A DNA stretch of 64,000 bases from a virus: IMG/VR virus record IMGVR_UViG_3300030202_002822; one strand, written 5' to 3'. The position numbers and the translations under genes were made by a program. The number at the start of each line of letters is the position of its first letter. The first letter of the stretch is position 1. The notes beneath the pieces were generated by a model, which saw nothing but the letters and a program-made list of their open reading frames with translations, made no database searches and was not told the DNA's origin. Positions 1,260-62,764 of this stretch are shown one piece after another.

Positions 1260-3128
1260 ATGGATAAACGTAATTTGGATAAAACAGAATCTGAAGTAAT
1301 ATCAGAACAAATTAAAGAAGGACAATTCAAAGAATCATCAAGTAGAGATGTTAAATCTTTATTAGAAAACTTAGGATGGGAAAAAGGTGTAGATGTTCCA
1401 GAATGGGGATGCACTGAAGTATATATAAAAACAATAAGTAAGGGTTACTTATTAGAAGGTGAAACACCAAAAGACGCATATTGGAGAGTTGCCACAACCG
1501 TAGCAAGAAGACTTGCAAAACCAGAATTAGCATCAAAATTCTTTGATTATATATGGAGGGGTTGGTTATGTTTAGCAACGCCTGTACTATCTAACACAGG
1601 AACAGAAAGAGGATTACCTATTTCATGTTTTGGTGTTGATGTAGCTGATTCTATATTAGATATAGGTCAGAAAAACTTAGAAATGATGCTTTTAGCTAAG
1701 CATGGTGGTGGAGTAGGTATCGGTATTAACCAAATAAGACCAGCTGGGGCTAACATAACTGGAAACGGAACATCTGATGGTGTTGTACCATTTATAAAGA
1801 TGTATGACTCTACAATACTAGCGACTAATCAAGGAGCTGTAAGAAGAGGTGCTGCTTCAGTAAACATGAACATAGAGCATGATGACTTTTGGGACTGGTT
1901 AGAAATAAGAGAACCAAAAGGTGATGTAAATAGACAATGTTTGAACATGCATCAATGTGCGGTTGTATCTAACAAATTCATGAGAAAAATTGAAAAAGGT
2001 GATGTTGAATCCAGAAAAAGATGGAGTGCTTTAATTAGAAAAAGAAGACAAACTGGTGAACCATATATTATGTTTAAGGGTAATGTAAATAATCAAAACC
2101 CAGAAGCATATAAAAAGAATAACTTAAAAGTATTCATGACTAATATATGTTCTGAAATTACTTTAGCTACTGATGAATCACATTCATTTGTTTGTTGTTT
2201 ATCTTCACTTAACTTAGCTAAATTTGACGAATGGAGAGATACTGATTTAATATACACAGCAACGTGGTTTTTAGACGGTGTAATGGAAGAATTTTTACAG
2301 AAAGCTAAGAACATGAGAGGTTTTGAAAATGCCGTTAGAAGCGCTGAAAAGGGCAGAGCGCTAGGGTTAGGTGTATTAGGTTGGCATAGTTACTTACAGA
2401 ACAGAGGACTACCTTTCGAAGGGTTATTAGCTCAATATGAAACTAGAAAGATATTTTCACAAATGAAATTAGAATCAGAAAGAGCTTCAAGAGCGCTAGC
2501 TGATGAGTATGGTGAACCGCTTTGGTGTACTGGTACAGGAATGAGAAACACTCACTTAAGAGCAATCGCTCCAACAGTGTCTAATTCAAAAAATGCTGGA
2601 AACTTATCTGCAGGTATTGAACCTTGGCCAGCTAACGTTTGGACCGAGCAGTCAGCTAAGGGTACATTCATTAGAAAGAATCCTTCATTAGAAAGGTATC
2701 TTAAAAAAATGAAACAAAATAATAAAGAAGTTTGGAATAAAATTCTTACTGATATGGGTTCAGTTCAAGATATTGATTTTCTTGATGAATGGGGATTTGT
2801 TGATGGTAAATTAAAGTTTATTCCAGAGTTACCTGAAGATTTTGACCTTAATGAAGTTATTAATTTTAAAGATGTGTTTAAAACATTCAAAGAGATAAAT
2901 CAATTAGATTTAATTAAACAAGCTGGGTTAAGACAACAATATATTGACCAGTCGGTTTCTTTAAATGTTGCATTTCCAACTCAAGCAACTCCAAAATGGA
3001 TTAATCAAGTCCATATGGAAGCATGGAAGTTAGGTATTAAAACTCTTTACTATATGAGAACAGAAAGTGTATTAAGGGGTGACATAGCTCAAGCAGCAAT
3101 GGTTGACTGTGAAGCTTGTGATGGGTAG
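1260..3128 (+). CDS. nrdA: Ribonucleotide reductase class I alpha subunit (no ATP cone)
   Basis: LATPVLSN, PISCF, TNICSEI, VCCLSSLNL, AIAPTVSNS, KTLYY and C-terminal CEAC motifs. Confidence 0.97.
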   Translation: MDKRNLDKTESEVISEQIKEGQFKESSSRDVKSLLENLGWEKGVDVPEWGCTEVYIKTISKGYLLEGETPKDAYWRVATTVARRLAKPELASKFFDYIWRGWLCLATPVLSNTGTERGLPISCFGVDVADSILDIGQKNLEMMLLAKHGGGVGIGINQIRPAGANITGNGTSDGVVPFIKMYDSTILATNQGAVRRGAASVNMNIEHDDFWDWLEIREPKGDVNRQCLNMHQCAVVSNKFMRKIEKGDVESRKRWSALIRKRRQTGEPYIMFKGNVNNQNPEAYKKNNLKVFMTNICSEITLATDESHSFVCCLSSLNLAKFDEWRDTDLIYTATWFLDGVMEEFLQKAKNMRGFENAVRSAEKGRALGLGVLGWHSYLQNRGLPFEGLLAQYETRKIFSQMKLESERASRALADEYGEPLWCTGTGMRNTHLRAIAPTVSNSKNAGNLSAGIEPWPANVWTEQSAKGTFIRKNPSLERYLKKMKQNNKEVWNKILTDMGSVQDIDFLDEWGFVDGKLKFIPELPEDFDLNEVINFKDVFKTFKEINQLDLIKQAGLRQQYIDQSVSLNVAFPTQATPKWINQVHMEAWKLGIKTLYYMRTESVLRGDIAQAAMVDCEACDG

Positions 3129-5855: not shown

Positions 5856-8800
5856 ATGTCAGACAATATTAGAATAAAAACAACAACAGGTAGGGGAAGT
5901 AAGAATATAAACCTAGAAATAAATCAAAAATTTGATTTTATAGAAATTCTTTCACTTAAAATTTCACAAGCTGAAGCGTATAGACGTTTTTGTTCTGATT
6001 ACGGTGTGGTAGTCGGTAGAGTTATAGTTAATAATGGAGTCGGTGTACCAAATGCTAAAGTATCAATATTTATACCAATAGATGAGATAGATTCAGAAAA
6101 TTCAGAAATTTTCGGATTATACCCATACGAAACAATAACAGACACAGACGATAAAGGAATACCATATAATCTTTTACCTAGAAATAATAGAGGAAAAGAT
6201 GAATGTTTTACACCAGTAGGTACTTTCCCAAGTAAGAGAGAAATACAAGACAACCCAGAATTAGATAGTGTATATTGTGATTATTATAAATTTACGACAA
6301 CAACAAATAATTCAGGTGATTTTATGATTTTTGGAGTTCCAGTAGGTACTCATTTTATACATGTTAATGCTGATATATCAGACATAGGAGCTCTTTCTCA
6401 GAGACCTTACGATTTAATACGAAACGGAGAAGATAGAGGTAAGTTTAATTCACCAACAAAGTTTAAGGGTAGGAGTGAAAACCCAATACCACCTCAATTA
6501 AAAACTGTATCCCCAACAAGTGTTACCGTTCCACCATTCTGGGGAGACACAGAAGAGTGTAGAATTGGTATAGCTAGGGCTGATATTGACTTAGCCACAA
6601 ATATAACACCTCAAGCCATATTCATGGGTTCAATCATAAGTGATAATGATAAACACGCATTAAATAAAAGATGTAGACCTAGAAAGAAATTAGGTAAAAT
6701 GGATGAAATTGTCACGGGTGATGGTAGAATAGAAATGATAAGGAAAACTAACACCGACAGAACTGAAAGATTTGATGTTGAAGGTGGTGAAGTAATTGAT
6801 GGTGACGGAACATGGGCATATCAAATACCAATGAATAGGGACTACATGATTACCGCTGAAGATGGAACTTTTATTCCATCAGAAGACCCTTCAAAAGGTA
6901 TTCCAACAAAAGCTAAGGTTAGGTTTAGAATCGGAATGAATACCCAAGGTGATGAAGGTAGGTTTAGAACGAGAGCAAAATTTTTAGTACCACACAATCC
7001 AGACACATGGGTTGACACACCTTCAAAGAAGGGTGTTGACTTTAGTTTTGATAGCACCACACATGATGACTACTTTACAGAATTATCTTGGAATAAAATA
7101 TATACTGTCAAGAATCACATAACTAGAACACAACCAAATGGTAATGCTGAAAATAGAAATTTTATAGGTCTTAAAAATGTTGATGACGCTAAGAATAGAA
7201 ACCCATTTCCATTTAACAGAATGGATAATGATGTAAACCCACTTTTTACTATACTTTGTGTAATAATTAAGATTATAGCAAGAATAGTTGGTATAATTAA
7301 TAGCATTATTATACCCCTAATCAATATATTAATTAGGGTTTTAAACGGTATAATGAAACGAGTTTGTCAAGTTATAGATAAGATAGGATACGCTTTATGT
7401 TACTTAAGCTTAACTCAAAAATGGGACAGCCCTTCTTGTAGAAATAAATATTGTATAGGTACTCCCGATGGGTATAAATGTGATTGTGAAGAAATTTTTA
7501 AATACATACCATATATAACGTTAACATGTAAAGCTGATGATTCAGGAAAGGAATACGCCCCAGGTGGTAAGTATGGCAAGAAAGCTAGAAGTGGTAAAAG
7601 GCTAGCATGGTTGGCAACTTATAAACGAAGAGACCCAGAAAACGAAGATGGACCAACAGTGGATACCCCTTTTCATTATCCTGACGACGGAGCTAAATCT
7701 CATGAATGTAACCCTGTTCAAAAAGCTACAATAGAAGGGTGTGATGCTGGTTGGTCTCATTGCCAAGCTCTTGCTCTAGCGGATGCTTTAGATGTATTTA
7801 AATTTGACTTCTATAACGATTGGATTAACGGCTCATTATATAGTTTTTTATTAAAATATAAAATCAAAAAACGTGGACGTGGTAAAGAAAAATTTTGTGA
7901 AGTAGACTGTGATAGCCCATCAACAGGGGTAGATAATAATAATGATGGAAACCCTGATAACAAATGTAAAAGAAATTATGTGGTTGATACATGTACTAAC
8001 GCAGAGCCACAGTCGGGTGGAGGGACATTTTGGTCTTCTTCATCCACAGGTGTTGGTAGTAAAGAAACAATATTAATAAGAAGTGGATATATTAAGAAAT
8101 ATGAAAATGAACTATATTACTCACCAATATCAAAAGATGGTGCTAAAAAACTATACGCTACAGATATTATTAATTTAGGTTCGGTATTTGAATGTGATTG
8201 GGAAGGCAAGCCAACCCTATATAAATACTTAACAGATACAACATTCAAAATCCCACCACTTGTTGCTGAGTACGAAACTAACCTAGATGGGTCAAATGGT
8301 GAAATAATAACAACAGGATTTGACACAGAGCTAGACGCAAGCTATACTCTTGGTCCTATATCCTTACCTGGTGGTAGCTCCGTATCATTACCAGTATCAT
8401 TACCTGGAATTGTTAGTTACGGTTTGATTGGTAATATAACATGTATTGGATTTCTTACTAATAGTAATAACTGTAACAATATAAGAAGATTATGTGAGCT
8501 AGGTGTAGGTCTAGACGAACTAAGAGAAACTAGTAAACCTAATAATTTAATTGGTAATGAAGATATTGAACAAGATTATGTACGAGGAATATTCACTCAT
8601 TTAAATACTCCGACATCAACAAATATACCTTCAATTAGAATCGATAAAACTAAATATCCAGACTATAAAGACACAGGTTATTATGATTTTAGAGACAGAG
8701 ACTCATCAGATGTAATATGGGGTTATGATAATTCATATTATTTTTACTTTGGACTTAATAAGGGCAAAACAGCACTAAGTAAAATGATGGGTAAATTCTT

Positions 8801-10220
8801 CACGCAATGCGTACCAGAACCAGATATAGACTTTTTTGTGTTTGCAACTGATATAACAAGCGACTTACTAAGTAACGGTTCGGGTGGTATAACAGTAGAA
8901 GCGTCTGGGGGTGTTGGACCGTATACATTTTTTTGGAACGGACCAACTATAGGTGGAATATCTTACCCGTTAACTAATAATACAAACGTAATAAGTGGTA
9001 CATATTCTGGCACCTATACAGTAACAGTAACTGATTCAGTTGGTAATGTTGCTGATGGTACGTTTGTAATTCCAGGGCCACCATCAACACAATGTGATGT
9101 ACAACACACTAATGTTACTAGTAGTGGTGGTAATGACGGTGAAATAACTGTAAATATAAGCAATGGTACAGCACCATATACCATGACGGTTTACAATTAC
9201 GACCCATCTGGTTCAGGAACAACACTATCACCTGTAGAACCAGCAACTAGCAACTCTAGTACTAGTAGGGTTGTTGATAACTTAATTAAGGGTTACTACA
9301 AAGTAGAGGTAACTGATTCTAGCACAATACAAACTAGTTGTGAAACGGTAGTTAATATTACCGAACCTCAATCTTTAAATATAGTATTAACACCATCTAA
9401 TGTAAGTTGTTTCGGTGAAAAAGATGGAAGTATTAGTTCATACATCAGTGGAGGTATTGGTCCATACAAACTACTATGGAATAACGGAAGCGCCTCAGGT
9501 TTTATAGATGGTCTAGATAAGGGTACATATACGCTCACAGTAACCGATAACGATGGAGCTGGGGTTCCAACATCAGTTTCTGAAACCATTACCGAACCAA
9601 CCGAAATAACTTTTGACACTCCAATCGTAACTAACGGTAATTGTAGTGGCTCAATAGGTAGTATAACAATAAATAATATTAACGGTGGAGCAGGGGCACC
9701 ATATACTTTAAAAATAGCTGACTCATCATACACCAAAACTGGAACCGCCTCTATTACACTAGATAATGACGGAGATGGATTACCAGAATCAATTGGTGGA
9801 CCAGCAGGTAAAAAGGGTTATGAACTTATAATTACAGATGTAAGTGGATGTACTAATACTGTATACTCAGAAGTATTTAATCCACTTACAGCTCTTTCAG
9901 CAACATTAACAAAGGACTCTACTTCAAGTCAACTTACAGTTACCATTAGTGGTGGTATACATAATACAGCTTCAGGTGATATATACAAATATACAACAGA
10001 ATGGTATAAAAATGGTTCTATTGCAGCATCAACCAAAACACTTTCTGGTTCAAATGATGTGTTTAACCTTCCACCTTCTTTACCACCTATAACCTCATCT
10101 GACGGTACAACCGTAAACCAACCAGATATAATTTACAAGGTTAAAGTTAGGGATAAAAACGGAGATTCGGGTGCTTGTGAAATTATTGAAACAATTTCAG
10201 TAGCTCAAAATTACTATTAA
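5856..10220 (+). CDS. Large virion structural (baseplate/tail) protein with C-terminal SprB-like repeats
   Basis: 1454 aa; N-terminal prealbumin-like motif (VVGRVIVNNGVGVPNAKVSIF); Cys-rich middle; repeats of G.I.V...GG..PY...W....YT.TVTD type. Confidence 0.75.
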   Translation: MSDNIRIKTTTGRGSKNINLEINQKFDFIEILSLKISQAEAYRRFCSDYGVVVGRVIVNNGVGVPNAKVSIFIPIDEIDSENSEIFGLYPYETITDTDDKGIPYNLLPRNNRGKDECFTPVGTFPSKREIQDNPELDSVYCDYYKFTTTTNNSGDFMIFGVPVGTHFIHVNADISDIGALSQRPYDLIRNGEDRGKFNSPTKFKGRSENPIPPQLKTVSPTSVTVPPFWGDTEECRIGIARADIDLATNITPQAIFMGSIISDNDKHALNKRCRPRKKLGKMDEIVTGDGRIEMIRKTNTDRTERFDVEGGEVIDGDGTWAYQIPMNRDYMITAEDGTFIPSEDPSKGIPTKAKVRFRIGMNTQGDEGRFRTRAKFLVPHNPDTWVDTPSKKGVDFSFDSTTHDDYFTELSWNKIYTVKNHITRTQPNGNAENRNFIGLKNVDDAKNRNPFPFNRMDNDVNPLFTILCVIIKIIARIVGIINSIIIPLINILIRVLNGIMKRVCQVIDKIGYALCYLSLTQKWDSPSCRNKYCIGTPDGYKCDCEEIFKYIPYITLTCKADDSGKEYAPGGKYGKKARSGKRLAWLATYKRRDPENEDGPTVDTPFHYPDDGAKSHECNPVQKATIEGCDAGWSHCQALALADALDVFKFDFYNDWINGSLYSFLLKYKIKKRGRGKEKFCEVDCDSPSTGVDNNNDGNPDNKCKRNYVVDTCTNAEPQSGGGTFWSSSSTGVGSKETILIRSGYIKKYENELYYSPISKDGAKKLYATDIINLGSVFECDWEGKPTLYKYLTDTTFKIPPLVAEYETNLDGSNGEIITTGFDTELDASYTLGPISLPGGSSVSLPVSLPGIVSYGLIGNITCIGFLTNSNNCNNIRRLCELGVGLDELRETSKPNNLIGNEDIEQDYVRGIFTHLNTPTSTNIPSIRIDKTKYPDYKDTGYYDFRDRDSSDVIWGYDNSYYFYFGLNKGKTALSKMMGKFFTQCVPEPDIDFFVFATDITSDLLSNGSGGITVEASGGVGPYTFFWNGPTIGGISYPLTNNTNVISGTYSGTYTVTVTDSVGNVADGTFVIPGPPSTQCDVQHTNVTSSGGNDGEITVNISNGTAPYTMTVYNYDPSGSGTTLSPVEPATSNSSTSRVVDNLIKGYYKVEVTDSSTIQTSCETVVNITEPQSLNIVLTPSNVSCFGEKDGSISSYISGGIGPYKLLWNNGSASGFIDGLDKGTYTLTVTDNDGAGVPTSVSETITEPTEITFDTPIVTNGNCSGSIGSITINNINGGAGAPYTLKIADSSYTKTGTASITLDNDGDGLPESIGGPAGKKGYELIITDVSGCTNTVYSEVFNPLTALSATLTKDSTSSQLTVTISGGIHNTASGDIYKYTTEWYKNGSIAASTKTLSGSNDVFNLPPSLPPITSSDGTTVNQPDIIYKVKVRDKNGDSGACEIIETISVAQNYY

Positions 10221-36059: not shown

Positions 36060-36899
36060 ATGAACAATAAAAAATTCGCAAACACCTCAGATGATACGAC
36101 AATATCTAATTATTTTAAAGACGTAAGAAAGAGTGAATTAATAACACCTGAAGATGAAGTTGATTTATCGATAAAAATTCAAAACGGTGATGATTCAGCA
36201 ATAAGTAAGCTAGTAGGTGCGAACTTAAAGTTCGTAATATCAATAGCTAAAGAATACCAAGGTCAAGGTCTTTCATTAAGTGACCTTATAAGTGAAGGAA
36301 ATTTAGGGCTAGTTAAAGCCGCGACTCGTTTTGACCATACTAGAGGTTTTAGATTTATATCATACGCTGTCTGGTGGATTAAGGAATCTATAATCAAAAG
36401 CCTTAATGACAACGCTAGAACAATCAGACTACCCACTAACGTAATTAAAAAAGTTTCAGACTTAAAAAAAGAAATTGAAAAATTTGAATTGGACAATGAA
36501 AGACTTCCAGTATATGGAGACTTATTAGACGACAACGGTGAACTTGTTGAAGAATTTACAACACCTCAATGCACATCTTTAAATGATATAATAAATGAAG
36601 ATGGCGACGAACTATATTGCATAATAGCTGACGTAAATTCAAATATAGAAGAAGAGATATTTTCAACCGATGATAGAATAAAAAAAGAAATCAATAATAT
36701 ACTTTCAAAGTTAGACGAAAGAGAAAGAGAAATACTTGAATGTTATTTTGGTATTAATAAAGAATATAACGGTATGACGCTTGAAGCTATTGGTGATAAA
36801 TACGGTTTAACTAAAGAAAGAATTAGACAAATAAAAGAAAAAGCCATTAGAAGAATTAGATTTAATGCTAGTGACTTATTTGACATCATTAACGAATAA
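36060..36899 (+). CDS. Sigma70-family factor (RpoD/SigA-like, lacking region 1.1)
   Basis: Regions 1.2, 2 (ANLKFVISIAK...DLISEGNLGL...FISYAVWWI), 3 and 4 (TLEAIG...TKERIRQI). Confidence 0.93.
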   Translation: MNNKKFANTSDDTTISNYFKDVRKSELITPEDEVDLSIKIQNGDDSAISKLVGANLKFVISIAKEYQGQGLSLSDLISEGNLGLVKAATRFDHTRGFRFISYAVWWIKESIIKSLNDNARTIRLPTNVIKKVSDLKKEIEKFELDNERLPVYGDLLDDNGELVEEFTTPQCTSLNDIINEDGDELYCIIADVNSNIEEEIFSTDDRIKKEINNILSKLDEREREILECYFGINKEYNGMTLEAIGDKYGLTKERIRQIKEKAIRRIRFNASDLFDIINE

Positions 36900-51216: not shown

Positions 51217-51247
51217 TTGACAATACTAAAAAAAAATTATATATTTG
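51217..51247 (+). promoter_or_regulatory. Early-type promoter
   Basis: TTGACA-N17-TATATTTG. Confidence 0.8.
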
Positions 51248-51276: not shown

Positions 51277-52731
51277 ATGACTAAATTAGTAAACGCATTG
51301 AGAACTAACGATAAGTTAACTGAAAACGGAATGACAACAAACAGTTCTTCTTTGAATAGTTGTGTTGATTTATTTTTTAAAGTAGGCGCATTAAGAGGTC
51401 AAGATAAGTTGAAAAAAATTAATGTATTTAGTAGGGCATATGGTGAAAACCCACTTTTAGCTATGAAATTAATTTTCTGGGCTAGAGACGTTAGAGGTGG
51501 TGCTGGTGAAAGAGGTACATTTAGAGAGGTTATTACTTACATAGCTAATAACAGAACTGAGTCACTTAGAAAAAACTTACACCTTATACCAGAGTACGGC
51601 AGATGGGATGATATGTTAACTTTAGTCGGTACTAAATTAGAATCTGAAGCATTATCAGTAATCGCTACTGCCCTTAAAGAAGGTAACGGTTTAGCTGCTA
51701 AATGGATGCCTAGAGGTAACGGTAAAAATAGAGACAAGAAGAAACAAGCTTCTGCTCTTAGAAAATATTTAAAACTTACACCAAAGGCATATAGAAAAAT
51801 GTTGTCAGAGCTTTCTAACACTGTTGAACAATTGATGTGTGCTAAAGACTATGAAAACATAAACTATGGTCACGTACCATCTAAGGCTATGTCTGATTAT
51901 ATGAAAGCCTTTAGTAAAAATGACGGTATAAGATTTGGTGATTACTTAGATTCCTTGTCAAAAGGTGAAGCTAAGATAAACGCTGGCGCTATTTACCCTT
52001 ATGATGTAACAAAGAATCTTAATTACGGTTCTTCAGAAGGAGCTTCAGAACAATGGAAAGCGTTACCAAACTACATGGAAGGTAGTAACGAAAGAGTTTT
52101 ACCAGTTGTAGATACTTCAGGTTCTATGTGTACTTCTGCTGGAGGTAGCGCAAAGTTAACTTGTTTAGATGTAGCTTTATCGTTAGGTTTATACATTTCA
52201 GAAAGAAATGAGGGTGCATTTAAAGATGCGTTTATGACGTTTTCTAGTAGACCAACCCTACAGTATTTAAATGGTGACTTATCCGATAGATTCAACCAAC
52301 TTGCTCGCGCAGATTGGGGTATGAGTACCGATATAGAAGCTACATTTTTAGAAATTCTAAGTAAAGCTAAGGAAAATAATGTTCCTGAGTCTGAAATGCC
52401 AACTATGATTTTAATACTTTCAGACATGGAGTTCGATGAAGCTAGAGGTATCACTTGTTACAGTGATACAAGTACATGGAACCCAACAGCGCAAACCATG
52501 ATTGAGGAAAGTTATACTGAAGCTGGATATAAGGTTCCAAAGATTGTATATTGGAACATACAGTCTAGGAATGAAAATGTCCCAGTACAATTCGATAAGA
52601 ATGGTACGGCATTAGTTTCTGGGTTTAGCCCAGCATTATTAACTGGTTTATTGTCTGGTGAAGACATAACTCCAGAGTCAATGATGATGGAAATTATAGA
52701 TAGTGATAGATACGCACCAATTACGGTGTAA
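51277..52731 (+). CDS. DUF2828-family protein (TROVE/Ro60-like helical domain + vWA)
   Basis: FWARDVRGGAGER, IPEYGRWDD, AAKWMPR, VDTSGSM (MIDAS), ILSDMEFD, IVYWN, LVSGFSP motifs. Confidence 0.88.
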   Translation: MTKLVNALRTNDKLTENGMTTNSSSLNSCVDLFFKVGALRGQDKLKKINVFSRAYGENPLLAMKLIFWARDVRGGAGERGTFREVITYIANNRTESLRKNLHLIPEYGRWDDMLTLVGTKLESEALSVIATALKEGNGLAAKWMPRGNGKNRDKKKQASALRKYLKLTPKAYRKMLSELSNTVEQLMCAKDYENINYGHVPSKAMSDYMKAFSKNDGIRFGDYLDSLSKGEAKINAGAIYPYDVTKNLNYGSSEGASEQWKALPNYMEGSNERVLPVVDTSGSMCTSAGGSAKLTCLDVALSLGLYISERNEGAFKDAFMTFSSRPTLQYLNGDLSDRFNQLARADWGMSTDIEATFLEILSKAKENNVPESEMPTMILILSDMEFDEARGITCYSDTSTWNPTAQTMIEESYTEAGYKVPKIVYWNIQSRNENVPVQFDKNGTALVSGFSPALLTGLLSGEDITPESMMMEIIDSDRYAPITV

Positions 52732-52789: not shown

Positions 52790-52939
52790 AGAATGCCTTC
52801 TGCAAACAATTTAAATCAAATCAGAAGAAGTTCATAAATTTAATTTGTGGACACAATAAGGTTTTAGTAATGTTTACCCTTAATTAATTAATAAACAACC
52901 TTCAAACTGAGTTTAAGAAGTAAAAGCTCCCGCATTCTG
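52790..52939 (+). ncRNA. Candidate structured ncRNA, long copy of the AGAA...TWCWGCAA...TTCTG motif
   Basis: AGAATGC (52790) pairs with GCATTCT (52932), followed by G; internal hairpins; bracketed by terminators. Confidence 0.55.
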
Positions 52940-52943
52940 AAAA

Positions 52944-52983
52944 AAAAGAGTTTATGTGATTTATTTTGCATAAACTCTTTTTT
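52944..52983 (+). terminator. Intrinsic terminator
   Basis: AAAAGAGTTTATG/CATAAACTCTTTT hairpin plus T-run. Confidence 0.8.
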
Positions 52984-53048
52984 ATTGTTTACACTTTGAA
53001 TTATAATGACTAAATTAGTATATAATAAGGAATATAAACAATAAAATA

Positions 53049-53714: not shown

Positions 53715-54056
53715 ATGATGGAAGAAGTCAAACAAGCAAAAAAAAATAGTTATGAGAACAATCTTACACCGCCAAGTAAGAATGATGAGTTATTTAGAAC
53801 ATGGGTTGAGTCAAAAAAAACACCCACACAGGAATTTATGAATAAAATAGTTGAATGGGCAAAAATTATTTTTAATAACCAATTTGGTAATAAAAAATAC
53901 GTTACAGATAGACAACTAGAGGGTTTATTAACTGATGTAACTTTAAAAGTTATTAAAGTTAGAAATAAATTTGATGAGAATAGTGGGGTTAAAATATACA
54001 GTTATTTTCACACCTTAATCATTAATACTATTATTAGTGAATTAACTAGTAAGTAA
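53715..54056 (+). CDS. Small protein resembling sigma-factor region 2
   Basis: VRNKFDENSGVKIYSYFHTLIINTI resembles the FD.....  FxxY region 2.3-2.4 motif. Confidence 0.45.
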   Translation: MMEEVKQAKKNSYENNLTPPSKNDELFRTWVESKKTPTQEFMNKIVEWAKIIFNNQFGNKKYVTDRQLEGLLTDVTLKVIKVRNKFDENSGVKIYSYFHTLIINTIISELTSK

Positions 54057-54943: not shown

Positions 54944-55393
54944 ATGATGAAACAGAAGGTCAGTAAAGAAGATAAGAAATATCCAAACTGGAATGGAATT
55001 TACGGATTCCTAGACGGTTTAACATACAAGGAACCAGAACTATTTAGTAACACACGTAGAGCAGTAAAGATGTTTGAGTCTTGGGCTAGTGTATTTATGA
55101 ATGATGTGGATAACCTAGGCAAGTGGTGTGTTTACATTGTAGTTTGTATGGACAATACACTCTATACAGGTATCAGTAATGATATAGTTAAGCGTATGGA
55201 AGCACATAACAAAGGTAAGGGGGCTAAATACACTCGTGGTAGATTACCAGTATACTTAGAAACATTTCACTTCGTAGAGAGCAAGTCTGAGGCTCTTAAG
55301 TTAGAGTATAAGATAAAGCAAATGAAAAGGCTTGATAAGATACCATACTTAAAATCACTTAGAGATGAATCTAAGAAATATGATAGTATATAA
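54944..55393 (+). CDS. GIY-YIG nuclease (UPF0213/SLX1-like) with N-terminal extension
   Basis: VYIV...LYTGISNDIVKRMEAHN.GKGAKYTRGR.P...ALKLEYKIK. Confidence 0.88.
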   Translation: MMKQKVSKEDKKYPNWNGIYGFLDGLTYKEPELFSNTRRAVKMFESWASVFMNDVDNLGKWCVYIVVCMDNTLYTGISNDIVKRMEAHNKGKGAKYTRGRLPVYLETFHFVESKSEALKLEYKIKQMKRLDKIPYLKSLRDESKKYDSI

Positions 55394-57244: not shown

Positions 57245-58285
57245 ATGGCAAGGGATTATTACGAAATACTTGGGTTATCAAGGGGTGCAACAGATAAAGA
57301 AATAAAGAAAGCTTATAGAAAATTAGCCATGGAGCATCACCCAGATAAGGGTGGTGATGAAAAATTATTTAAAGAGATATCAGAAGCTAATGATATATTA
57401 TCTGACAAGAATAAAAAAGATAATTATGATAGATACGGGCACACCAACCAAAGACAAAGGAATGGTGGTGTAAACATGGAAGATATAATGAACAACTTCA
57501 ACTTTGGTGGAATGGGTGGAAATCCATTTGGAGGTCGAAGAGAAAAACGTGGACAGGATATAGTAGTTAATATGAACATTACAATCGAAGAAGTGTTTAA
57601 TGGTGTATCAAAGAAGTTTAAATATAGAAGAAATTCTGCTTGTGTTTCTTGTAATGGAGCTGGTGGAACCGATAAACAAACATGTGGGACGTGTGACGGT
57701 AGAGGTTTCATTATAAGACAACAAATGACACCCATGGGTAGTTTCCAAACGCAACAAACTTGTTCAAACTGTCAAGGTGAGGGTTATGTTGTAAAAAATG
57801 TATGTAATAGCTGTGGCGGTGCGGGAGTTGGTAATAAGGAAGAGTTTATATCTGTAAACATACCCAAGGGTATTACCGAACAAGAAACTATCCAGTACTC
57901 TGGTATGGGTAACGCGATAAAAGACGGTATACCTGGTTCATTACTAATTAAAATTAATATTGTACCTCATAAAGATTTTACAATAAGTGGTAATGACTTA
58001 AAATATAAACTTAAGTTAAGTTATCCACAATTAGTTATAGGTGATAAAGTAGAGGTTCCAGTCATTGAGGGTGGTAAAATCAGAGTTAAAATACCAGAAT
58101 ATAGTAAAATCGGGGATAATTTAAGAATAATAAATAAGGGTTTGAATAATATTAAAAATAATTTTCGTGGTTCAATGATAATAATTTTAGATATAGAAAT
58201 GCCTACAAACATTAAGGGTGAAGAGTTGGAATTAATTAAAAAATTAAAAAAAATACATGATGGGGTTGAAACTAAGGTTGATTAA
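57245..58285 (+). CDS. dnaJ: Class A J-domain co-chaperone
   Basis: J domain with HPD, G/F region, four CxxCxGxG repeats, C-terminal domain. Confidence 0.96.
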
Positions 58286-58296
58286 TAGTATCTTTG
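58266..58296 (+). promoter_or_regulatory. Early-type promoter
   Basis: TTGAAA-N17-TATCTTTG. Confidence 0.6.
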
Positions 58297-58333
58297 TATC
58301 ATAAACAAATAAATAACAATTAAATTTAAAATT

Positions 58334-58765
58334 ATGGCAGAATTCTACGAACCACACAAAGACACATTGAGTATTTTTAATGGTGTTATCGCGAACAAAG
58401 AATTAGATAGAGTTGTCTCTATTGCGATTAGAGGTAACAACAAACAAAAAGAAATCTATTCAATCCAAAAAAGTGGTGAATTAATGAAGAGTGAAACTAA
58501 TAAAGAAGTCTTTATTATAGTAAACGAATTAATATTTGAACAACTAGAAGAGGTTCATCAAGTACTAGTTGCTGAGGAAGCTATTACCGCTATTGTGTTT
58601 GATGCAGAAAAAGACAAATTAAGCCTAAAAAAGGGTGATGTTGGTATAACTAACCGTGGCGCATTTTCAGGTATATTAAAAAAGTTTACACCAGAAATGT
58701 ATGAACTAGTTCAAGAGAGTATTAAAACACTATATAATGTAGAAAAAGAAGAGGCTGAGGTATGA
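58334..58765 (+). CDS. Hypothetical protein (possibly a degenerate phage metallopeptidase-like fold)
   Basis: 143 aa; no intact HExxH motif. Confidence 0.6.
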   Translation: MAEFYEPHKDTLSIFNGVIANKELDRVVSIAIRGNNKQKEIYSIQKSGELMKSETNKEVFIIVNELIFEQLEEVHQVLVAEEAITAIVFDAEKDKLSLKKGDVGITNRGAFSGILKKFTPEMYELVQESIKTLYNVEKEEAEV

Positions 58766-59019
58766 TGACACCAGAAGAAGTATCAGAATACAATGAAGAA
58801 GCTTTAATAGCTGATGGATTAGATGAAGCGATAATAGGGGTTGCCGAGAGAATAAACCTCGGTCCCGTTGCTGCATATAGTGTCGAAAAAATATATGAAA
58901 TACTAATGACTCGTGACGGTATGACATATGAAGAAGCTATTGAGTTTTTTGAATTTAACATAAAAGGGTCATGGATGGGAGAATACACACCTGTCTACAT
59001 TTACACAAACGAAGATTAA
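58762..59019 (+). CDS. Conserved phage hypothetical protein
   Basis: ADGLDEAIIG...MTYEEAIEFFEFNI.GSWMG..TP pattern. Confidence 0.7.
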   Translation: MMTPEEVSEYNEEALIADGLDEAIIGVAERINLGPVAAYSVEKIYEILMTRDGMTYEEAIEFFEFNIKGSWMGEYTPVYIYTNED

Positions 59020-59020
59020 A

Positions 59021-59245
59021 ATGCAAGAACAAATTTACAAATTACTAAAATCTAAGGCTTTATCTGAAAGAGAAGAAGCAATAACAACACTAAAACTTAT
59101 GGGTAATCATCCAGCTGGTATCGGAGACCATTCTACAGAGGATTTCTATAATAACGTCGAGGAATCTTTAAGTAAGTTAGTTGATGCTGATGATAAATTA
59201 AGTACTTTAGAAAAATATAAGTCTGAATTATTTTCAGCTAGATAA
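59021..59245 (+). CDS. Small conserved hypothetical protein
   Basis: 74 aa with a GIGDHS motif. Confidence 0.7.
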   Translation: MQEQIYKLLKSKALSEREEAITTLKLMGNHPAGIGDHSTEDFYNNVEESLSKLVDADDKLSTLEKYKSELFSAR

Positions 59246-59255
59246 AAAAATACAC

Positions 59256-59993
59256 ATGGAAAACTATATGAATACAAATATTGACTTTCATAGTGAGTTC
59301 AGAAATTATGCAATGAACCATATGGGGGTTAGCGGAATGGAGTTTTACAATTGGGAAAAATCACAAGCCTCAATCTATAACAACGTAAACGTATTGGCTG
59401 GAACACAACCTAGTGGTTCAATGACACCCTATATCCTTGAAGAAAGAGAATTAAGGGTAACTCAAATGGACATATTCTCAAGACAGATGATGGATAGGAT
59501 ACTTTGGGTAGTTGGACCAGTTAACGACCATATGTCAACGGTTGTATGCGCTCAGCTAATGTTCTTAGACAATTTAGAGGTGTCTGACATTAAGATGTAC
59601 GTAGATAGTCCAGGAGGTAGCGTTAAAAGTGGTCTTAGCATGGTAGATGTAATGAACTATGTTGAATCTGATATTGTAACAGTTAATACTGGTATGGCAG
59701 CGTCAATGGGTTCTATACTATTAGGTAATGGTACTAAGGGTAAAAGATTTGCGTTACCAAATTCAAGGGTTATGCTTCACCAAGTTAGTAGTGGTGCTAG
59801 AGGTCATGTTGAAGATATGAAGATTAGTATTGCTGAAGCTGAGAAGTATAATCAAAACTTATTTGCCATGCTTGCTGAATATACTGATAAGGATATCAAG
59901 ACAGTACTTAAGGATTGTAATAGAGATAACTGGCTTAATGCTAAAGAAGCTTTAGAATATGGTATCATAGATGATATTATAACTAAAAAATAA
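59256..59993 (+). CDS. clpP: ATP-dependent Clp protease proteolytic subunit (Bacteroidota-type N-terminus)
   Basis: DSPGG, MAASMGS (Ser), VMLHQ (His), RDNWL (Asp); TPYILEER...MDIFSR. Confidence 0.95.
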   Translation: MENYMNTNIDFHSEFRNYAMNHMGVSGMEFYNWEKSQASIYNNVNVLAGTQPSGSMTPYILEERELRVTQMDIFSRQMMDRILWVVGPVNDHMSTVVCAQLMFLDNLEVSDIKMYVDSPGGSVKSGLSMVDVMNYVESDIVTVNTGMAASMGSILLGNGTKGKRFALPNSRVMLHQVSSGARGHVEDMKISIAEAEKYNQNLFAMLAEYTDKDIKTVLKDCNRDNWLNAKEALEYGIIDDIITKK

Positions 59994-60459
59994 TAATTGG
60001 TTGCCCCATATAACAATTTAAATACATAAATAGATATGGAAACAATTATTTTAATTTCAGTTTTATCAACTCTAGGTGTAGTTGCATTAGTTACGGCTAT
60101 TGTGGTTATGTTTACGAAGTTGAACAAAAAGGTTGGGAACGAAATGTTTAACAACGAAATGACAGGTTTAATCAATTTAATTGATGAAAACCAAAGGTTA
60201 AATAACAAAAGGGATGAGGAAAATAATAATGAGTTATCCCGAAACATCGATGATATATATCGAGCAATAACTAAAGTTGAGTCTAATTTAGATTCAAGGA
60301 CTGATAAGCTTCACGACCTTATTAAGTTAACGGAAAAAGAACTTGTAAATCAGTTAGATTACAGGTTAAGTGAAATGGAGAGACTTATTTTCAAGGTCCA
60401 AGAAAAGGTTAATAAGGAATTATTGACTAATTAATAATAAACGGGGCAACTAATTATTA
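59991..60459. repeat. 17-bp inverted repeat pair (59991-60007 and 60443-60459) bracketing one gene
   Basis: TAATAATTGGTTGCCCC versus GGGGCAACTAATTATTA; the single mismatch is G-U compatible. Confidence 0.8.
60036..60434 (+). CDS. Membrane-anchored coiled-coil protein
   Basis: N-terminal TM followed by heptad repeats. Confidence 0.75.
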   Translation: METIILISVLSTLGVVALVTAIVVMFTKLNKKVGNEMFNNEMTGLINLIDENQRLNNKRDEENNNELSRNIDDIYRAITKVESNLDSRTDKLHDLIKLTEKELVNQLDYRLSEMERLIFKVQEKVNKELLTN

Positions 60460-60460
60460 A

Positions 60461-60487
60461 TGGGAACTTAACGGTTCCCATTTTTTT
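60461..60487 (+). terminator. Intrinsic terminator
   Basis: TGGGAAC/GTTCCCA hairpin plus T7. Confidence 0.85.
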
Positions 60488-60497
60488 ATCAAAAAAG

Positions 60498-60528
60498 TTG
60501 ACAAGTTATTAAATTTTTAGTATATTTG
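60498..60528 (+). promoter_or_regulatory. Promoter for tmRNA
   Basis: TTGACA-N17-TATATTTG. Confidence 0.8.
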
Positions 60529-60558
60529 TAGATATATATAAAGTAGTTCTTTTTTTAT

Positions 60559-60918
60559 GGGGTATATTGCTATTGATTACTTAAGTTGTGATTGGTAAGC
60601 ATGCAGTGTTAAATGGAAACACTTTAATAACCTATTGCAATTTTTTAAATGACAACGAGTTTGACATTGACAAAAACTTCCTAGAAACTTCTACAGTAGA
60701 AGAATTCTCAGGAGAGGTAGCATTCGCCTAATCGAAGACGCACGTCCTTCATGGACACCAGGTTTATCTGATTGTACTTAACAATCGGCTGAAGGTTGTA
60801 AGTTACCGCTCTGCTAATTTGGGAACTTAATATTTTTGTTCTTTTAGAAAAAACGAACTAAGCATGTAGAAAACTTATTATAGGTAAGTAAGACGTGAGT
60901 TCAATCTCACATACTCCA
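60559..60918 (+). ncRNA. ssrA: tmRNA
   Basis: Acceptor stem GGGGTAT/ATACTCC with G3-U and discriminator A; T-arm GTGAG/CTCAC; GCATGTAG near the 3' end; internal tag ORF 60651-60731. Confidence 0.92.
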
Positions 60919-60949
60919 CACTAAGACGTTTTTTGTCTTATATTTTTTT

Positions 60950-60981
60950 AAACCCTCTAATTAATTTTAGAGGGTTTTTTT
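60950..60981 (+). terminator. Intrinsic terminator after tmRNA
   Basis: AAACCCTCTAA/TTAGAGGGTTT hairpin plus T-run. Confidence 0.85.
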
Positions 60982-60992
60982 ATTATTAAAGG

Positions 60993-61023
60993 TTGACAAT
61001 ATCATTTATTCTATGTATATTTG
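60993..61023 (+). promoter_or_regulatory. Early-type promoter
   Basis: TTGACA-N17-TATATTTG. Confidence 0.8.
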
Positions 61024-61051
61024 CAGTATAACAAAAAAAATATTATTAATT

Positions 61052-61501
61052 ATGGCGATTATTAAAGAAAACAGTAAAGTAAAAGTGCATTATACAGGAA
61101 AATATTCTGACGGTAATGTTTTCGATTCATCGAAAGCAGTCGAAGGTCACGAACAATTCACGGACAGAGAACCATTAAATATCGAATTAGGAAAGGGTCA
61201 GTTAATTCCAGGTTTTGAAAAAGCCTTACAAGGTATGGCAGAAGGTGAAACTAAAACCGTTACTATAGAGTCCGCAGACGCTTACGGACCAATTAAAGAA
61301 GACCACTATCAAGAGGTTGACAAAAAATTTGTACCTGAAACAGTTAAAGAAGGGGATATGCTTCAAACTGAGAATGAGCAACAACAAGTTATGCAGGTGA
61401 CGGTAAAGGAAGTTAAAGAAAATACAGTTGTATTAGATGCAAATCATCCATTAGCTGGTAAGGATTTAACCTTCGAGTTAGAGGTTGTAGCTGTATCTTA
61501 A
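61052..61501 (+). CDS. slyD: FKBP-type peptidyl-prolyl isomerase, SlyD-like (start revised to 61052)
   Basis: KVHYTG...FDSS, LIPGFEKAL, DANHPLAGKDLTFELEV; no His-rich tail. Confidence 0.92.
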   Translation: MAIIKENSKVKVHYTGKYSDGNVFDSSKAVEGHEQFTDREPLNIELGKGQLIPGFEKALQGMAEGETKTVTIESADAYGPIKEDHYQEVDKKFVPETVKEGDMLQTENEQQQVMQVTVKEVKENTVVLDANHPLAGKDLTFELEVVAVS

Positions 61502-61538
61502 ATAGCAATTATTATTTATTAATTATTTGTTTTTTTAT

Positions 61539-61564
61539 AAAACCCTCCTAGTGAGGGTTTTTTT
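61539..61564 (+). terminator. Intrinsic terminator
   Basis: AAAACCCTC/GAGGGTTTT hairpin. Confidence 0.8.
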
Positions 61565-61600
61565 ATCTCTATATGTTATATTTATAATAAACAAATAATT

Positions 61601-61828
61601 ATGAAGGAATTTTTAAAGGATATCTTAATAGAAGATAAAAAGGACGGAAAAACATCATCAAAAAAGGTGATGGGTGTATTAGGTTCAGTACTAGCTTTTA
61701 GTGCTTTTGTAGTAGATGGGTTTAATTTCTATGAAATTGACTCAGGGATGTTTGACTCAATGTTGATATTTTCTGGTACAATGTTAGGTGCCTCAATCGT
61801 AAAAGGATTTGGCAGTGCATCAAAATAA
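61601..61828 (+). CDS. Holin-like two-TM protein
   Basis: 75 aa, two TMs after SSKK, TATTTATA at 61579-61586. Confidence 0.55.
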   Translation: MKEFLKDILIEDKKDGKTSSKKVMGVLGSVLAFSAFVVDGFNFYEIDSGMFDSMLIFSGTMLGASIVKGFGSASK

Positions 61829-61844
61829 CCTATACGGTAATTGT

Positions 61845-61875
61845 AAAAAGAGTCAGAGCAATCTGGCTCTTTTTT
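61845..61875. terminator. Bidirectional terminator
   Basis: AAAAAGAGTCAGA-gcaa-TCTGGCTCTTTTTT. Confidence 0.85.
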
Positions 61876-61972
61876 ACTTATTAGTTGTAGTGTTAATTGT
61901 TGTTACAGTAGTATTACTAGTGTTTGTGTTTACGGGTTTAGTATTCCCTTTCTTTTTACAATTGCAAGGCAT
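61874..61972 (-). CDS. 32-aa micro-protein MPCNCKKK... (absent from the ORF track)
   Basis: My translation MPCNCKKKGNTKPVNTNTSNTTVTTINTTTNK; late-type motif upstream and terminator immediately downstream. Confidence 0.6.
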   Translation of the reverse strand: MPCNCKKKGNTKPVNTNTSNTTVTTINTTTNK

Positions 61973-62105
61973 AGTTTTAAATTTTAAATCTTATATTATG
62001 TTGTATATAAATAAATATAGGGTAAAGGTAAAATAAACTATAATTATTTATCTTTTAAAAAAAATACATATATTTGTATTATAACTATACTAAATTATTA
62101 AAAAT

Positions 62106-62300
62106 ATGTTAAAAGTAAATGTTAAAGGTGGGAATATTGAGAAGGCTCTTAAAATCTTAAAAAGAAAAACAAAAAATGTAAAACAAATTGTTGAATTGAG
62201 AGACAATAAAGAATATACTAAACCTTCAGAAGCCAATAGAAATAAAAAAAAGAAAGCAATATATATTAACAAGAAAAAAAACGAAGAAGACAATGCTTAA
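62106..62300 (+). CDS. rpsU: Ribosomal protein bS21
   Basis: NIEKALKILKRK...ELRDNKEYTKPS pattern; 64 aa, basic; TATATTTG at 62069. Confidence 0.88.
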   Translation: MLKVNVKGGNIEKALKILKRKTKNVKQIVELRDNKEYTKPSEANRNKKKKAIYINKKKNEEDNA

Positions 62301-62530: not shown

Positions 62531-62561
62531 TTGACATGTATTAAAAATATGTGTATATTTG
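62531..62561 (+). promoter_or_regulatory. Promoter upstream of the ncRNA pair
   Basis: TTGACA-N17-TATATTTG with no ORF before the next terminator. Confidence 0.8.
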
Positions 62562-62575
62562 TTGTATAGTATTAA

Positions 62576-62626
62576 AGAAAGGATACAGCAGTTTAAAAAC
62601 TCAAATCGGAAAACAATTCCTTTCTG
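62576..62626 (+). ncRNA. Candidate small structured RNA, copy 1
   Basis: AGAAAGGA pairs with TCCTTTCT; followed by TACAGCAG; ends in CTG. Confidence 0.6.
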
Positions 62627-62639
62627 TTACTTTTTATAA

Positions 62640-62691
62640 AGAAAAGATACAGCAATTCACACACAAAGCAAAATGTAAAAATTCTTTTCTG
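62640..62691 (+). ncRNA. Candidate small structured RNA, copy 2
   Basis: AGAAAAGA pairs with TCTTTTCT (compensatory change versus copy 1); followed by TACAGCAA; ends in CTG. Confidence 0.6.
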
Positions 62692-62719
62692 AAACTAGTT
62701 TTTTTAATATAGTATAATT

Positions 62720-62747
62720 AATCCTCAGTGATAAGCTGGGGATTTTT
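62720..62747 (+). terminator. Intrinsic terminator
   Basis: AATCCTCAG/CTGGGGATT hairpin plus T-run. Confidence 0.75.
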
Positions 62748-62764
62748 ATTTAAAAATTTTAATT

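What the first reader, a model, noticed from the sequence alone, without database searches (positions are those of the whole stretch)
62531..62747. Stand-alone transcription unit encoding two tandem small RNAs with covarying end-pairing stems
A perfect TTGACA-N17-TATATTTG promoter and an intrinsic terminator enclose ~150 nt with no ORF. The unit holds two ~51-nt copies of the form [8-nt stem]-TACAGCA(G/A)-variable A-rich loop-[complementary stem]-G. The stems are AGAAAGGA/TCCTTTCT and AGAAAAGA/TCTTTTCT, a compensatory G-C to A-U change, while the loops are unrelated. Conserved structure plus a conserved unpaired heptamer points to a protein-bound RNA family. A third, longer copy follows the Ro60-like DUF2828 gene. 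Inference: phage-encoded Y-RNA-like ligands, guides or decoys.
Basis: partly seen in the sequence, partly recalled or inferred. Interest (0 to 1): 0.88.

Follow-up and report, generated by a model that had tools for sequence, protein, structure and literature searches.

The report
Phage partner RNAs for Ro60-like protein
Two small RNA genes with their own promoter and terminator in a large phage belong to an apparently unpublished RNA family that travels with a Ro60-like ring protein gene in hundreds of phages, and whose design closely mirrors the unexplained 'Class I' RNAs of social amoebae.

Summary
A TTGACA-N17-TATATTTG promoter (62531-62561) and an intrinsic terminator (62720-62744) enclose two ~52-nt units (62576-62627, 62640-62692). 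Each unit has an 8-bp end-joining stem, then UACAGCA(G/A), an A-rich loop, the complementary strand and a G.

The units are not a local oddity. In 80 viral contigs, RNAs of the same design lie just downstream of homologues of the window's DUF2828/DUF7788 gene (51277-52731). All 47 covariance-model hits fall on the gene's strand, downstream of it. A model built without the window copies still finds both (37.6 and 31.9 bits; next best 16).

The protein's predicted structure matches Ro60/TROVE over its full length (Foldseek E 3.6e-9).

Best reading: these are Y-RNA-like partners of the Ro60-like protein, co-expressed from the same promoter type. Binding is inferred, not shown.

No Rfam family reaches its threshold. 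The only recurring weak match is Dictyostelium Class I RNA (17-29 bits; cutoff 41.5), which has the same architecture.

Caveats: the stems are thermodynamically weak, one close relative carries a decayed single unit, and there are no expression data.

This scan has already found the same family on other DNA (at least 21 genomes). I found no paper that describes it.

The parts
62531..62561 (+). Promoter TTGACA-N17-TATATTTG of the small-RNA unit
   Evidence: One of 4 exact copies in the window (0.03 expected). Conserved in L010 and L092.
62576..62627 (+). Short-type RNA 1: 8-bp terminal stem, UACAGCAG box, 25-nt A-rich loop, 3' strand, GU
   Evidence: Independent model R2 scores 31.9 bits, E 2.7e-5.
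62628..62639 (+). A/U-rich linker between the two RNAs; presumed processing site
   Evidence: 92% identical in L091. Processing is inferred.
62640..62692 (+). Short-type RNA 2: 8-bp terminal stem, UACAGCAA box, loop with a second GCAA, 3' strand, GA
   Evidence: Independent model R2 scores 37.6 bits, E 1.1e-6. Weak RF01414 match at 17.3 bits.
62720..62750 (+). Intrinsic terminator (10-pair stem plus T run)
   Evidence: A U-G pair becomes C-G in L010 and L092.
51217..51247 (+). Same promoter type, 30 nt upstream of the Ro60-like gene
51277..52731 (+). DUF2828 + DUF7788 protein with a Ro60 (TROVE + vWA) fold; presumed RNA partner
   Evidence: Pfam hits at 7.7e-35 and 2e-47. PHROG 850 'RNA-binding protein' at 2e-152. 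AF2 pLDDT 80.5. Top 13 Foldseek PDB hits are Ro60/TROVE, E down to 3.6e-9.
52790..52940 (+).
   Evidence: In an alignment of 12 homologues, the terminal stem shows double changes at 4 of 7 pairs.
52941..52987 (+). Terminator hairpin after the long RNA

Best explanation
The unit encodes two short members of a widespread phage RNA family. Each RNA has a 7-8 bp helix joining its 5' and 3' ends and a single-stranded U-N-C-N-GCA-A box directly after the 5' strand. A variable A-rich loop follows, and a G follows the 3' strand.

Shown: the family is genomically coupled to a Ro60-fold protein (DUF2828/DUF7788), which this phage encodes 10 kb upstream together with a long member of the family.

Inferred: helix plus box form the handle by which the protein holds the RNA, as Ro60 holds Y RNAs. 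The variable part would tune or tether the particle. The four exact copies of one promoter type in the window precede the protein gene, this RNA unit, the tmRNA and an FKBP gene. Protein and RNAs are therefore probably made together.

Inferred: the ~180-nt primary transcript must be cut in the leader, in the linker and before the terminator to release two ~52-nt RNAs.

Inferred from one preprint on a Felix O1-type protein described as Ro60-like: the particle probably serves RNA surveillance or counter-defence during infection.
For: Anatomy.

Family membership: model R2 was built from 23 RNAs next to DUF2828 genes of other contigs. It finds only these two sites in the window (37.6 and 31.9 bits; next best 16.2).

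Coupling to the gene:
- All 47 R1 hits in 80 DUF2828 loci are on the gene's strand and downstream of it.
- Of 5 whole records, the 3 with the RNA are the 3 with PF11443.
- 59% of exact UACAGCAA sites downstream of the gene have an adjacent stem of at least 7 bp, against 15% at random positions.

Stem covariation: 7 of 8 pairs show double changes, and the covariation score is 0.776 against 0.199 for shuffles and at most 0.31 for slid partners.

Protein fold: Ro60/TROVE over the full length.

Shared promoter.

Synteny: RNA arrays lie just upstream of the same kinase-like gene, 7-9 kb from DUF2828, in G003 and G004.

Cultured example: Listeria phage WIL-1 has three tandem units directly before its DUF2828 gene, and a gene annotated 'tRNA splicing ligase' (RtcB-type) 1.3 kb after it.

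Protein function: Bas63 gp130, reported as structurally similar to Ro60, counters the Ppl defence (PMC11482910).
Against: - No binding or expression data exist.
- The stems are A/U-rich and no more stable than shuffles (z -1.5, -1.7). The centroid fold of the whole transcript omits them.
- Alignment A2 was assembled from units chosen for having a stem, so its pairing percentage is partly circular.
- The close relative L092 has one fused unit with a mutated box and no 3' strand, and the model does not detect it.
- The 91-98% identity to L091 continues into the next gene (92%), so it marks a mosaic block rather than selection on the RNA.
- Bas63 gp130 restored T7 plaquing from a plasmid without phage RNAs, so the RNAs may be dispensable for that activity.
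Confidence: 0.7

Rival explanations
1. The RNAs are trans-acting antisense regulators. The A-rich loops would pair with host or phage mRNAs, and the terminal stem and box would serve only for stability or for a host chaperone, independently of the DUF2828 protein.
For: The unit is stand-alone with a strong promoter and a terminator. The loops are unstructured and vary between family members. In L092 the surviving part is the loop of unit 2 followed by a new terminator-like hairpin, which looks like a classic sRNA.
Against: The longest antisense matches of either loop to the window are no better than for shuffled loops. The conserved parts are the stem and box, not the loops. The strict strand and position coupling to DUF2828 is unexplained by this reading. 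The host genome could not be searched.
Confidence: 0.12
2. The RNAs are decoys or substrates for a host RNA-targeting defence or a tRNA-processing enzyme. The 7-bp stem plus an unpaired 3' base would act as an acceptor-stem mimic, and the Ro60-like protein would only be a neighbour in the same functional module.
For: Family members sit inside tRNA clusters in relatives. The stem is 7-8 bp with a conserved unpaired G after it. RtcB lies nearby in Listeria phage WIL-1.
Against: ARAGORN finds no tRNA-like feature and no tRNA-clan Rfam match appears. This window has no tRNA cluster at all.
Confidence: 0.1
3. The unit is a repeat-based element of a known kind: a type III antitoxin-like RNA array, a CRISPR-like mini-array, or DNA-level inverted repeats bound by a regulator.
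For: Tandem 64-nt periodicity behind a promoter, followed by a terminator and then a 173-aa gene.
Against: The downstream gene is a weak P-loop dNMP-kinase-like protein with no ToxN or other PADLOC match. The repeats share only their flanks, not the whole unit. Pairing within a unit is perfect, whereas the alternative between-unit pairing has a mismatch. Family members elsewhere occur singly and next to DUF2828.
Confidence: 0.03

Closest known systems
Ro60 (Rsr) with Y RNAs, including bacterial and mycobacteriophage YrlA (Chen et al. 2014, PMC4201824) and Thermus phage phiLo Ro60 (PMC12135203)
   Same: A ring-shaped TROVE + vWA-fold protein is encoded next to small non-coding RNAs whose 5' and 3' ends pair. 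There are often several RNAs per locus, sometimes among tRNA genes and near RtcB.
   Different: The protein matches Pfam DUF2828/DUF7788, and TROVE is not among its Pfam hits at E <= 0.001. A sequence search of the PDB finds no Ro60. The RNA handle is a plain 7-8 bp helix plus a single-stranded UACAGCAA box, not the bulged Ro-binding helix or the GNCGAA motif. The short RNAs have no tRNA-like domain. No Y-RNA-type Rfam family appears even at E <= 5-10.
Dictyostelium Class I RNAs (Rfam RF01414; Kjellin et al. 2021, PMC7919456)
   Same: Both are 42-65 nt, with a short stem joining the ends and a conserved box next to the 5' strand (Rfam consensus CUUACAGCAA). The rest is variable and A/U-rich. 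A 5' G and a 3' CUG are conserved. RF01414 is the only family that recurs at the RNA positions: 17.3 and 18.4 bits in the window, and 26.1-28.8 bits in L168, L127 and L151.
   Different: All scores lie below the 41.5-bit cutoff. The host is bacterial rather than amoebal, and the promoter is bacterial rather than DUSE. The only direct Class I binder shown is an RRM protein (Rnp1A). Whether Dictyostelium has a DUF2828 protein was not testable here.
Bas63 gp130 (PhageMaP preprint, PMC11482910)
   Same: It is a Felix O1-type phage protein reported as structurally similar to Ro60, lying upstream of a tRNA array, and its authors guessed at Y-RNA partners. Felix O1-type phages carry homologues about 39% identical to the window's protein.
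   Different: The preprint defines no RNA family. Homology of gp130 itself to the window's protein was not tested here. Its activity against Ppl worked from a plasmid without phage RNAs.

Membership tests
DUF2828-associated stem-UACAGCAA RNA family (no Rfam entry; defined) | A 7-8 bp helix joins the 5' and 3' ends | tested here: met
   Both units have perfect 8-bp stems. Family stems covary.
DUF2828-associated stem-UACAGCAA RNA family (no Rfam entry; defined) | U-N-C-N-GCA-A box directly after the 5' strand, and a G after the 3' strand | tested here: met
   The boxes are UACAGCAG and UACAGCAA, and the stem is followed by G in both units.
DUF2828-associated stem-UACAGCAA RNA family (no Rfam entry; defined) | Significant score to a covariance model built without the candidate | tested here: met
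   R2 gives 37.6 bits (E 1.1e-6) and 31.9 bits (E 2.7e-5). The next best site in the window scores 16.2 bits.
DUF2828-associated stem-UACAGCAA RNA family (no Rfam entry; defined) | A DUF2828/DUF7788 gene in the same genome | tested here: met
   The gene lies at 51277-52731. The same pairing is seen in G001, G003 and G004.
DUF2828-associated stem-UACAGCAA RNA family (no Rfam entry; defined) | Physical binding to the DUF2828 protein | not testable with these tools
   Needs RIP or EMSA.
Y RNA / YrlA | Match to an Rfam Y-RNA-type covariance model | tested here: not met
   There is no such hit at gathering threshold or at E <= 5-10.
Y RNA / YrlA | Ro-binding module (bulged helix, or GNCGAA on the 5' strand; PMC4201824) | tested here: not met
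   The stem is uninterrupted and the box sequence differs.
Y RNA / YrlA | tRNA-like domain in at least one RNA of the locus | tested here: not met
   ARAGORN finds nothing in the window. The short units are too small, and the long unit shows no tRNA-clan match.
Y RNA / YrlA | Encoded with a Ro60 orthologue | tested here: inconclusive
   The partner has the Ro60 fold, but its Pfam hits at E <= 0.001 are DUF2828 and DUF7788 only.
Dictyostelium Class I RNA (RF01414) | Score at or above the Rfam gathering cutoff (41.5 bits) | tested here: not met
   Unit 2 scores 17.3 bits and unit 1 is not reported. Family members elsewhere reach 26-29 bits.
Dictyostelium Class I RNA (RF01414) | 42-65 nt, short end-joining stem, conserved box next to the 5' strand, variable remainder | tested here: met
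Dictyostelium Class I RNA (RF01414) | DUSE promoter about 60 nt upstream; dictyostelid genome | tested here: not met
   The promoter is of bacterial type, and the genome is phage-like with a tmRNA and a baseplate gene.
Type III toxin-antitoxin RNA array | Near-identical tandem repeats followed by a ToxN/AbiQ-type endoribonuclease gene | tested here: not met
   The repeats share only their flanks. The downstream protein has no PADLOC or Pfam toxin match.

The most novel reading that the evidence does not exclude
The phage stem-UACAGCAA RNAs and the Class I RNAs of dictyostelid amoebae are the same kind of RNA: ligands of a Ro60-fold DUF2828-type protein. Class I RNAs, reported as unique to Dictyostelia and of unknown mechanism, would then be the amoebal branch of a second, ancient Ro/Y-RNA-like system shared with phages. 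One of the uncharacterised Class I pull-down proteins (DDB_G0281243) or another amoebal DUF2828 protein would be their real partner.
Probability: 0.12. Interest if true: 0.9.

Novelty: new variant of a known kind. Interest (0 to 1): 0.78.

Why it matters
Ro60 and its Y RNAs are a classic but still poorly understood RNA-surveillance particle. Here a second, sequence-unrelated branch of that protein fold carries its own RNA family with a different handle. The protein has homologues in 711 deposited phage genomes, including those of Felix O1-type, Listeria, Staphylococcus and mycobacterial phages.

The family gives a defined RNA ligand to test for a protein that a preprint links to counter-defence. 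It also explains many 'intergenic' stretches and tiny mis-called ORFs in phage genomes.

This locus adds three points. The RNA genes can be detached from the protein gene. They can be driven by the same promoter type as the protein gene. They can be lost or fused in close relatives.

The architectural match to Class I RNAs offers a concrete, cheap test for a long-standing puzzle in Dictyostelium biology.

Tried and rejected
- DNA search of deposited phages with the 500-nt region found no match.
- An exact 17-mer scan of IMG/VR gave 90 loci, of which only L010 was a true relative. The rest were coding coincidences.
- A generic search for AGAA-NNNN...NNNN-TTCT pairs in the window was not above chance: 8 found against 3.7 expected. 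The stem alone therefore proves nothing.
- Coding potential: the 53-aa GTG frame is rejected because of indels in L010.
- Type III antitoxin, CRISPR-like array and defence-gene readings are rejected.
- Antisense targets inside the window: none above chance.
- High identity to L091 as a sign of selection is rejected, because it is a mosaic block that includes the next gene.
- Is DDB_G0281243, or any Dictyostelium protein, a DUF2828 protein? I found no paper with the answer. The 2011 paper is not held. The proteome files in the supplement are truncated and gave no hit. The ESM Atlas gave only viral clusters.
- A sequence search of the PDB with the protein found nothing; only the fold search did.

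Full report
**What is there.**
The window is an AT-rich (about 31% GC) phage-like genome with nearly all large frames on the + strand. It encodes:
- ribonucleotide reductase and a baseplate wedge protein;
- a sigma-70 factor and a DUF2828/DUF7788 protein;
- DnaJ, ClpP, an FKBP isomerase and ribosomal protein bS21;
- a tmRNA.

At 62531-62561 lies TTGACA-N17-TATATTTG. This extended motif occurs four times in the window against 0.03 expected. The four copies stand before the DUF2828 gene, the tmRNA, the FKBP gene and the unit studied here. An intrinsic terminator closes the unit at 62720-62744.

Between promoter and terminator are two units with a 64-nt period, at 62576-62627 and 62640-62692. Each has a perfect 8-bp stem joining its ends, UACAGCA(G/A) directly after the 5' strand, a 25-26-nt A-rich loop, and a G after the 3' strand.

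A 53-aa GTG frame crosses the unit. Indels of 4 and 2 nt in the nearest relative break it.

**Is it more than chance?**
By themselves the stems are weak evidence. Such short A/U-rich inverted repeats are common. Their folding energies are no better than shuffles. One compensatory change between two copies is only suggestive. The decisive evidence comes from other genomes.

**Relatives.**
IMG/VR holds two close relatives.
- L010/L091 has both units. Identity there is 91-98%, but the next gene is 92% identical while the two genes upstream are 63-69% identical. This is a mosaic block, not proof of selection.
- L092 has a 64-nt deletion that fuses the 5' half of unit 1 to the loop of unit 2. Its box is mutated and its 3' strand is replaced by a new hairpin. 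The family model does not detect it. The unit can therefore decay.

**The family.**
I fetched 80 contigs encoding homologues (51-94% identity) of the window's DUF2828 protein. Directly downstream of the gene, nearly all carry one or two RNAs of the same design. A short form is 52-65 nt and a long form is 130-300 nt.

The stems differ in sequence from contig to contig but remain complementary, and the box is kept as U-N-C-N-GCA-A.

In an alignment of 27 short forms, seven of eight stem pairs show changes on both sides. The covariation score is 0.776, against 0.199 for shuffles and at most 0.31 for slid partners. That alignment was assembled from units picked for having a stem, so I added three tests that do not depend on the choice.
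- Model R2, built from 23 gene-adjacent RNAs without the window and L010 copies, finds exactly the two window units. They score 37.6 and 31.9 bits; the next best site scores 16.2.
- All 47 hits of model R1 in the 80 loci (334 kb, both strands) lie on the gene's strand and downstream of it.
- Among exact UACAGCAA sites downstream of the gene, 59% have an adjacent stem of at least 7 bp within 75 nt, against 15% at random positions.

Across 12 homologues, its terminal stem shows double changes at four of seven pairs, and a 3' hairpin is also conserved.

**The protein.**
An AlphaFold model made with 30 homologues has mean pLDDT 80.5. Its 13 best PDB matches are all Ro60/TROVE structures over the full length, with E down to 3.6e-9. 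They include Thermus phage phiLo Ro60, Deinococcus Rsr, the Ro autoantigen structures 1yvp, 1yvr and 2i91, and human Ro60.

Sequence methods do not see this relationship. PHROGs files the protein as 'RNA-binding protein'. Homologues occur in 711 deposited phage genomes.

**Detached arrays.**
In this window the two short RNAs lie 10 kb from the protein gene. The same layout appears in more distant relatives. In G003 and G004 the RNA arrays lie 7-9 kb from DUF2828, just upstream of tRNA genes and of the same dNMP-kinase-like gene that follows the unit here. In G004 they have their own promoters of the same kind.

Among five whole records, the three with the RNA are the three with PF11443. A 93%-complete 330-kb record has neither.

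In the closest relative, G001, the long RNA after the gene has collapsed to a bare hairpin. The model then finds only the detached pair in that record, which is about 29% complete.

In the cultured Listeria phage WIL-1, three tandem units sit directly before the gene and overlap tiny annotated ORFs. A gene annotated 'tRNA splicing ligase' (RtcB-type) follows 1.3 kb later.

**How it most likely works.**
- Shown: the anatomy, family membership, gene coupling, the Ro60 fold and the shared promoter type.
- Inferred: helix plus box are the handle bound by the ring protein, as Ro60 binds the terminal helix of Y RNAs.
- Inferred: the primary transcript is processed into two ~52-nt RNAs.
- Inferred: the particle acts in RNA surveillance or counter-defence.

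The last point rests on a preprint in which the Ro60-like gp130 of the Felix O1-type phage Bas63 counters the Ppl defence (PMC11482910). In that work gp130 functioned from a plasmid without phage RNAs, so the RNAs may modulate the protein rather than enable it.

The loops show no antisense target in the window above chance. A subset of loops, including unit 2, repeat GCAA at a spacing of about 12 nt: 12 of 27 against 3.0 expected.

**Comparison with known families.**
Across the whole window, the tmRNA is the only Rfam family that reaches its threshold. No Y-RNA-type family appears even at permissive thresholds. The handle differs from the Ro-binding module of Y and YrlA RNAs (PMC4201824).

The only family that recurs at the RNA positions is Dictyostelium Class I RNA (RF01414). 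It scores 17.3 and 18.4 bits in the window and 26.1-28.8 bits in three other loci, against a cutoff of 41.5.

Class I RNAs are defined by the same features: 42-65 nt, a short end-joining stem, a conserved box next to the 5' strand, a variable remainder and conserved termini. They were reported as unique to Dictyostelia (PMC7919456).

This is a resemblance, not membership. I could not determine whether Dictyostelium has a DUF2828 protein, or what the uncharacterised Class I pull-down protein DDB_G0281243 is.

**Novelty.**
My searches found no paper that links DUF2828 to an RNA. The preprint only guesses that some tRNA genes might be Y RNAs.

Earlier notes of this scan report the same protein-RNA pairing and the Class I resemblance on other DNA, in at least 21 genomes. 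Within the scan this is therefore a further instance. The new points here are the detached, separately promoted tandem unit, the shared promoter type, and the decay seen in close relatives.

Noticed in passing
window 60559-60921 (+), promoter at 60498-60528: Phage-encoded tmRNA. Rfam gives 56.5 bits against a cutoff of 47, but ARAGORN did not report it. It is driven by the same TTGACA-N17-TATATTTG promoter type.
   Followed up: partly
window 57245-62300: A cluster of proteostasis and translation genes in a phage: DnaJ (57245-58285), ClpP (59256-59993), the tmRNA, an FKBP isomerase (61013-61501) and ribosomal protein bS21 (62106-62300).
   Followed up: partly
window 36060-36899 and 53715-54056: A full sigma-70 family factor (regions 1.2, 2 and 4), plus a second short frame with a weak region-2 match. 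The phage may supply its own sigma for the promoter type seen here.
   Followed up: no
window 5856-10220; promoters at 51217, 60498, 60993 and 62531: A 1454-aa protein with SprB repeats, and promoters ending in TAnnTTTG. Both hint at a Bacteroidota (Flavobacteriia-like) host. The host was not determined.
   Followed up: no
L107 about 2960-3010 (record G001): In the closest relative, the long RNA after the DUF2828 gene has collapsed to a 7-bp hairpin with a 5-nt loop and no box. The detached pair are then the only family members the model finds in that record, which is about 29% complete.
   Followed up: partly
window 52900-52938 and alignment A5 columns 177-200: The long-type RNAs share a conserved hairpin with compensatory changes just before the 3' strand. 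A flanking UUC...GAA complementarity might make a pseudoknot.
   Followed up: no
alignment A2 loops, including window 62656-62682: 12 of 27 short-RNA loops carry one or two further GCAA motifs at about 12-nt spacing (3.0 expected from shuffles). The loops are 52% A and 8% G.
   Followed up: partly
L202 2165-2428 (Listeria phage WIL-1, NC_025440): Three tandem family members lie under or next to four annotated 21-26-codon 'hypothetical protein' genes (gp031-gp034 region). These are probably mis-called ORFs.
   Followed up: partly
G003:C1:10245-11904: The DUF2828 match in this record is split between two open frames (366 and 194 aa). This could be an interruption, a frameshift or an inserted element.
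   Followed up: no
window 54944-55393: A GIY-YIG endonuclease gene, possibly a homing endonuclease.
   Followed up: no
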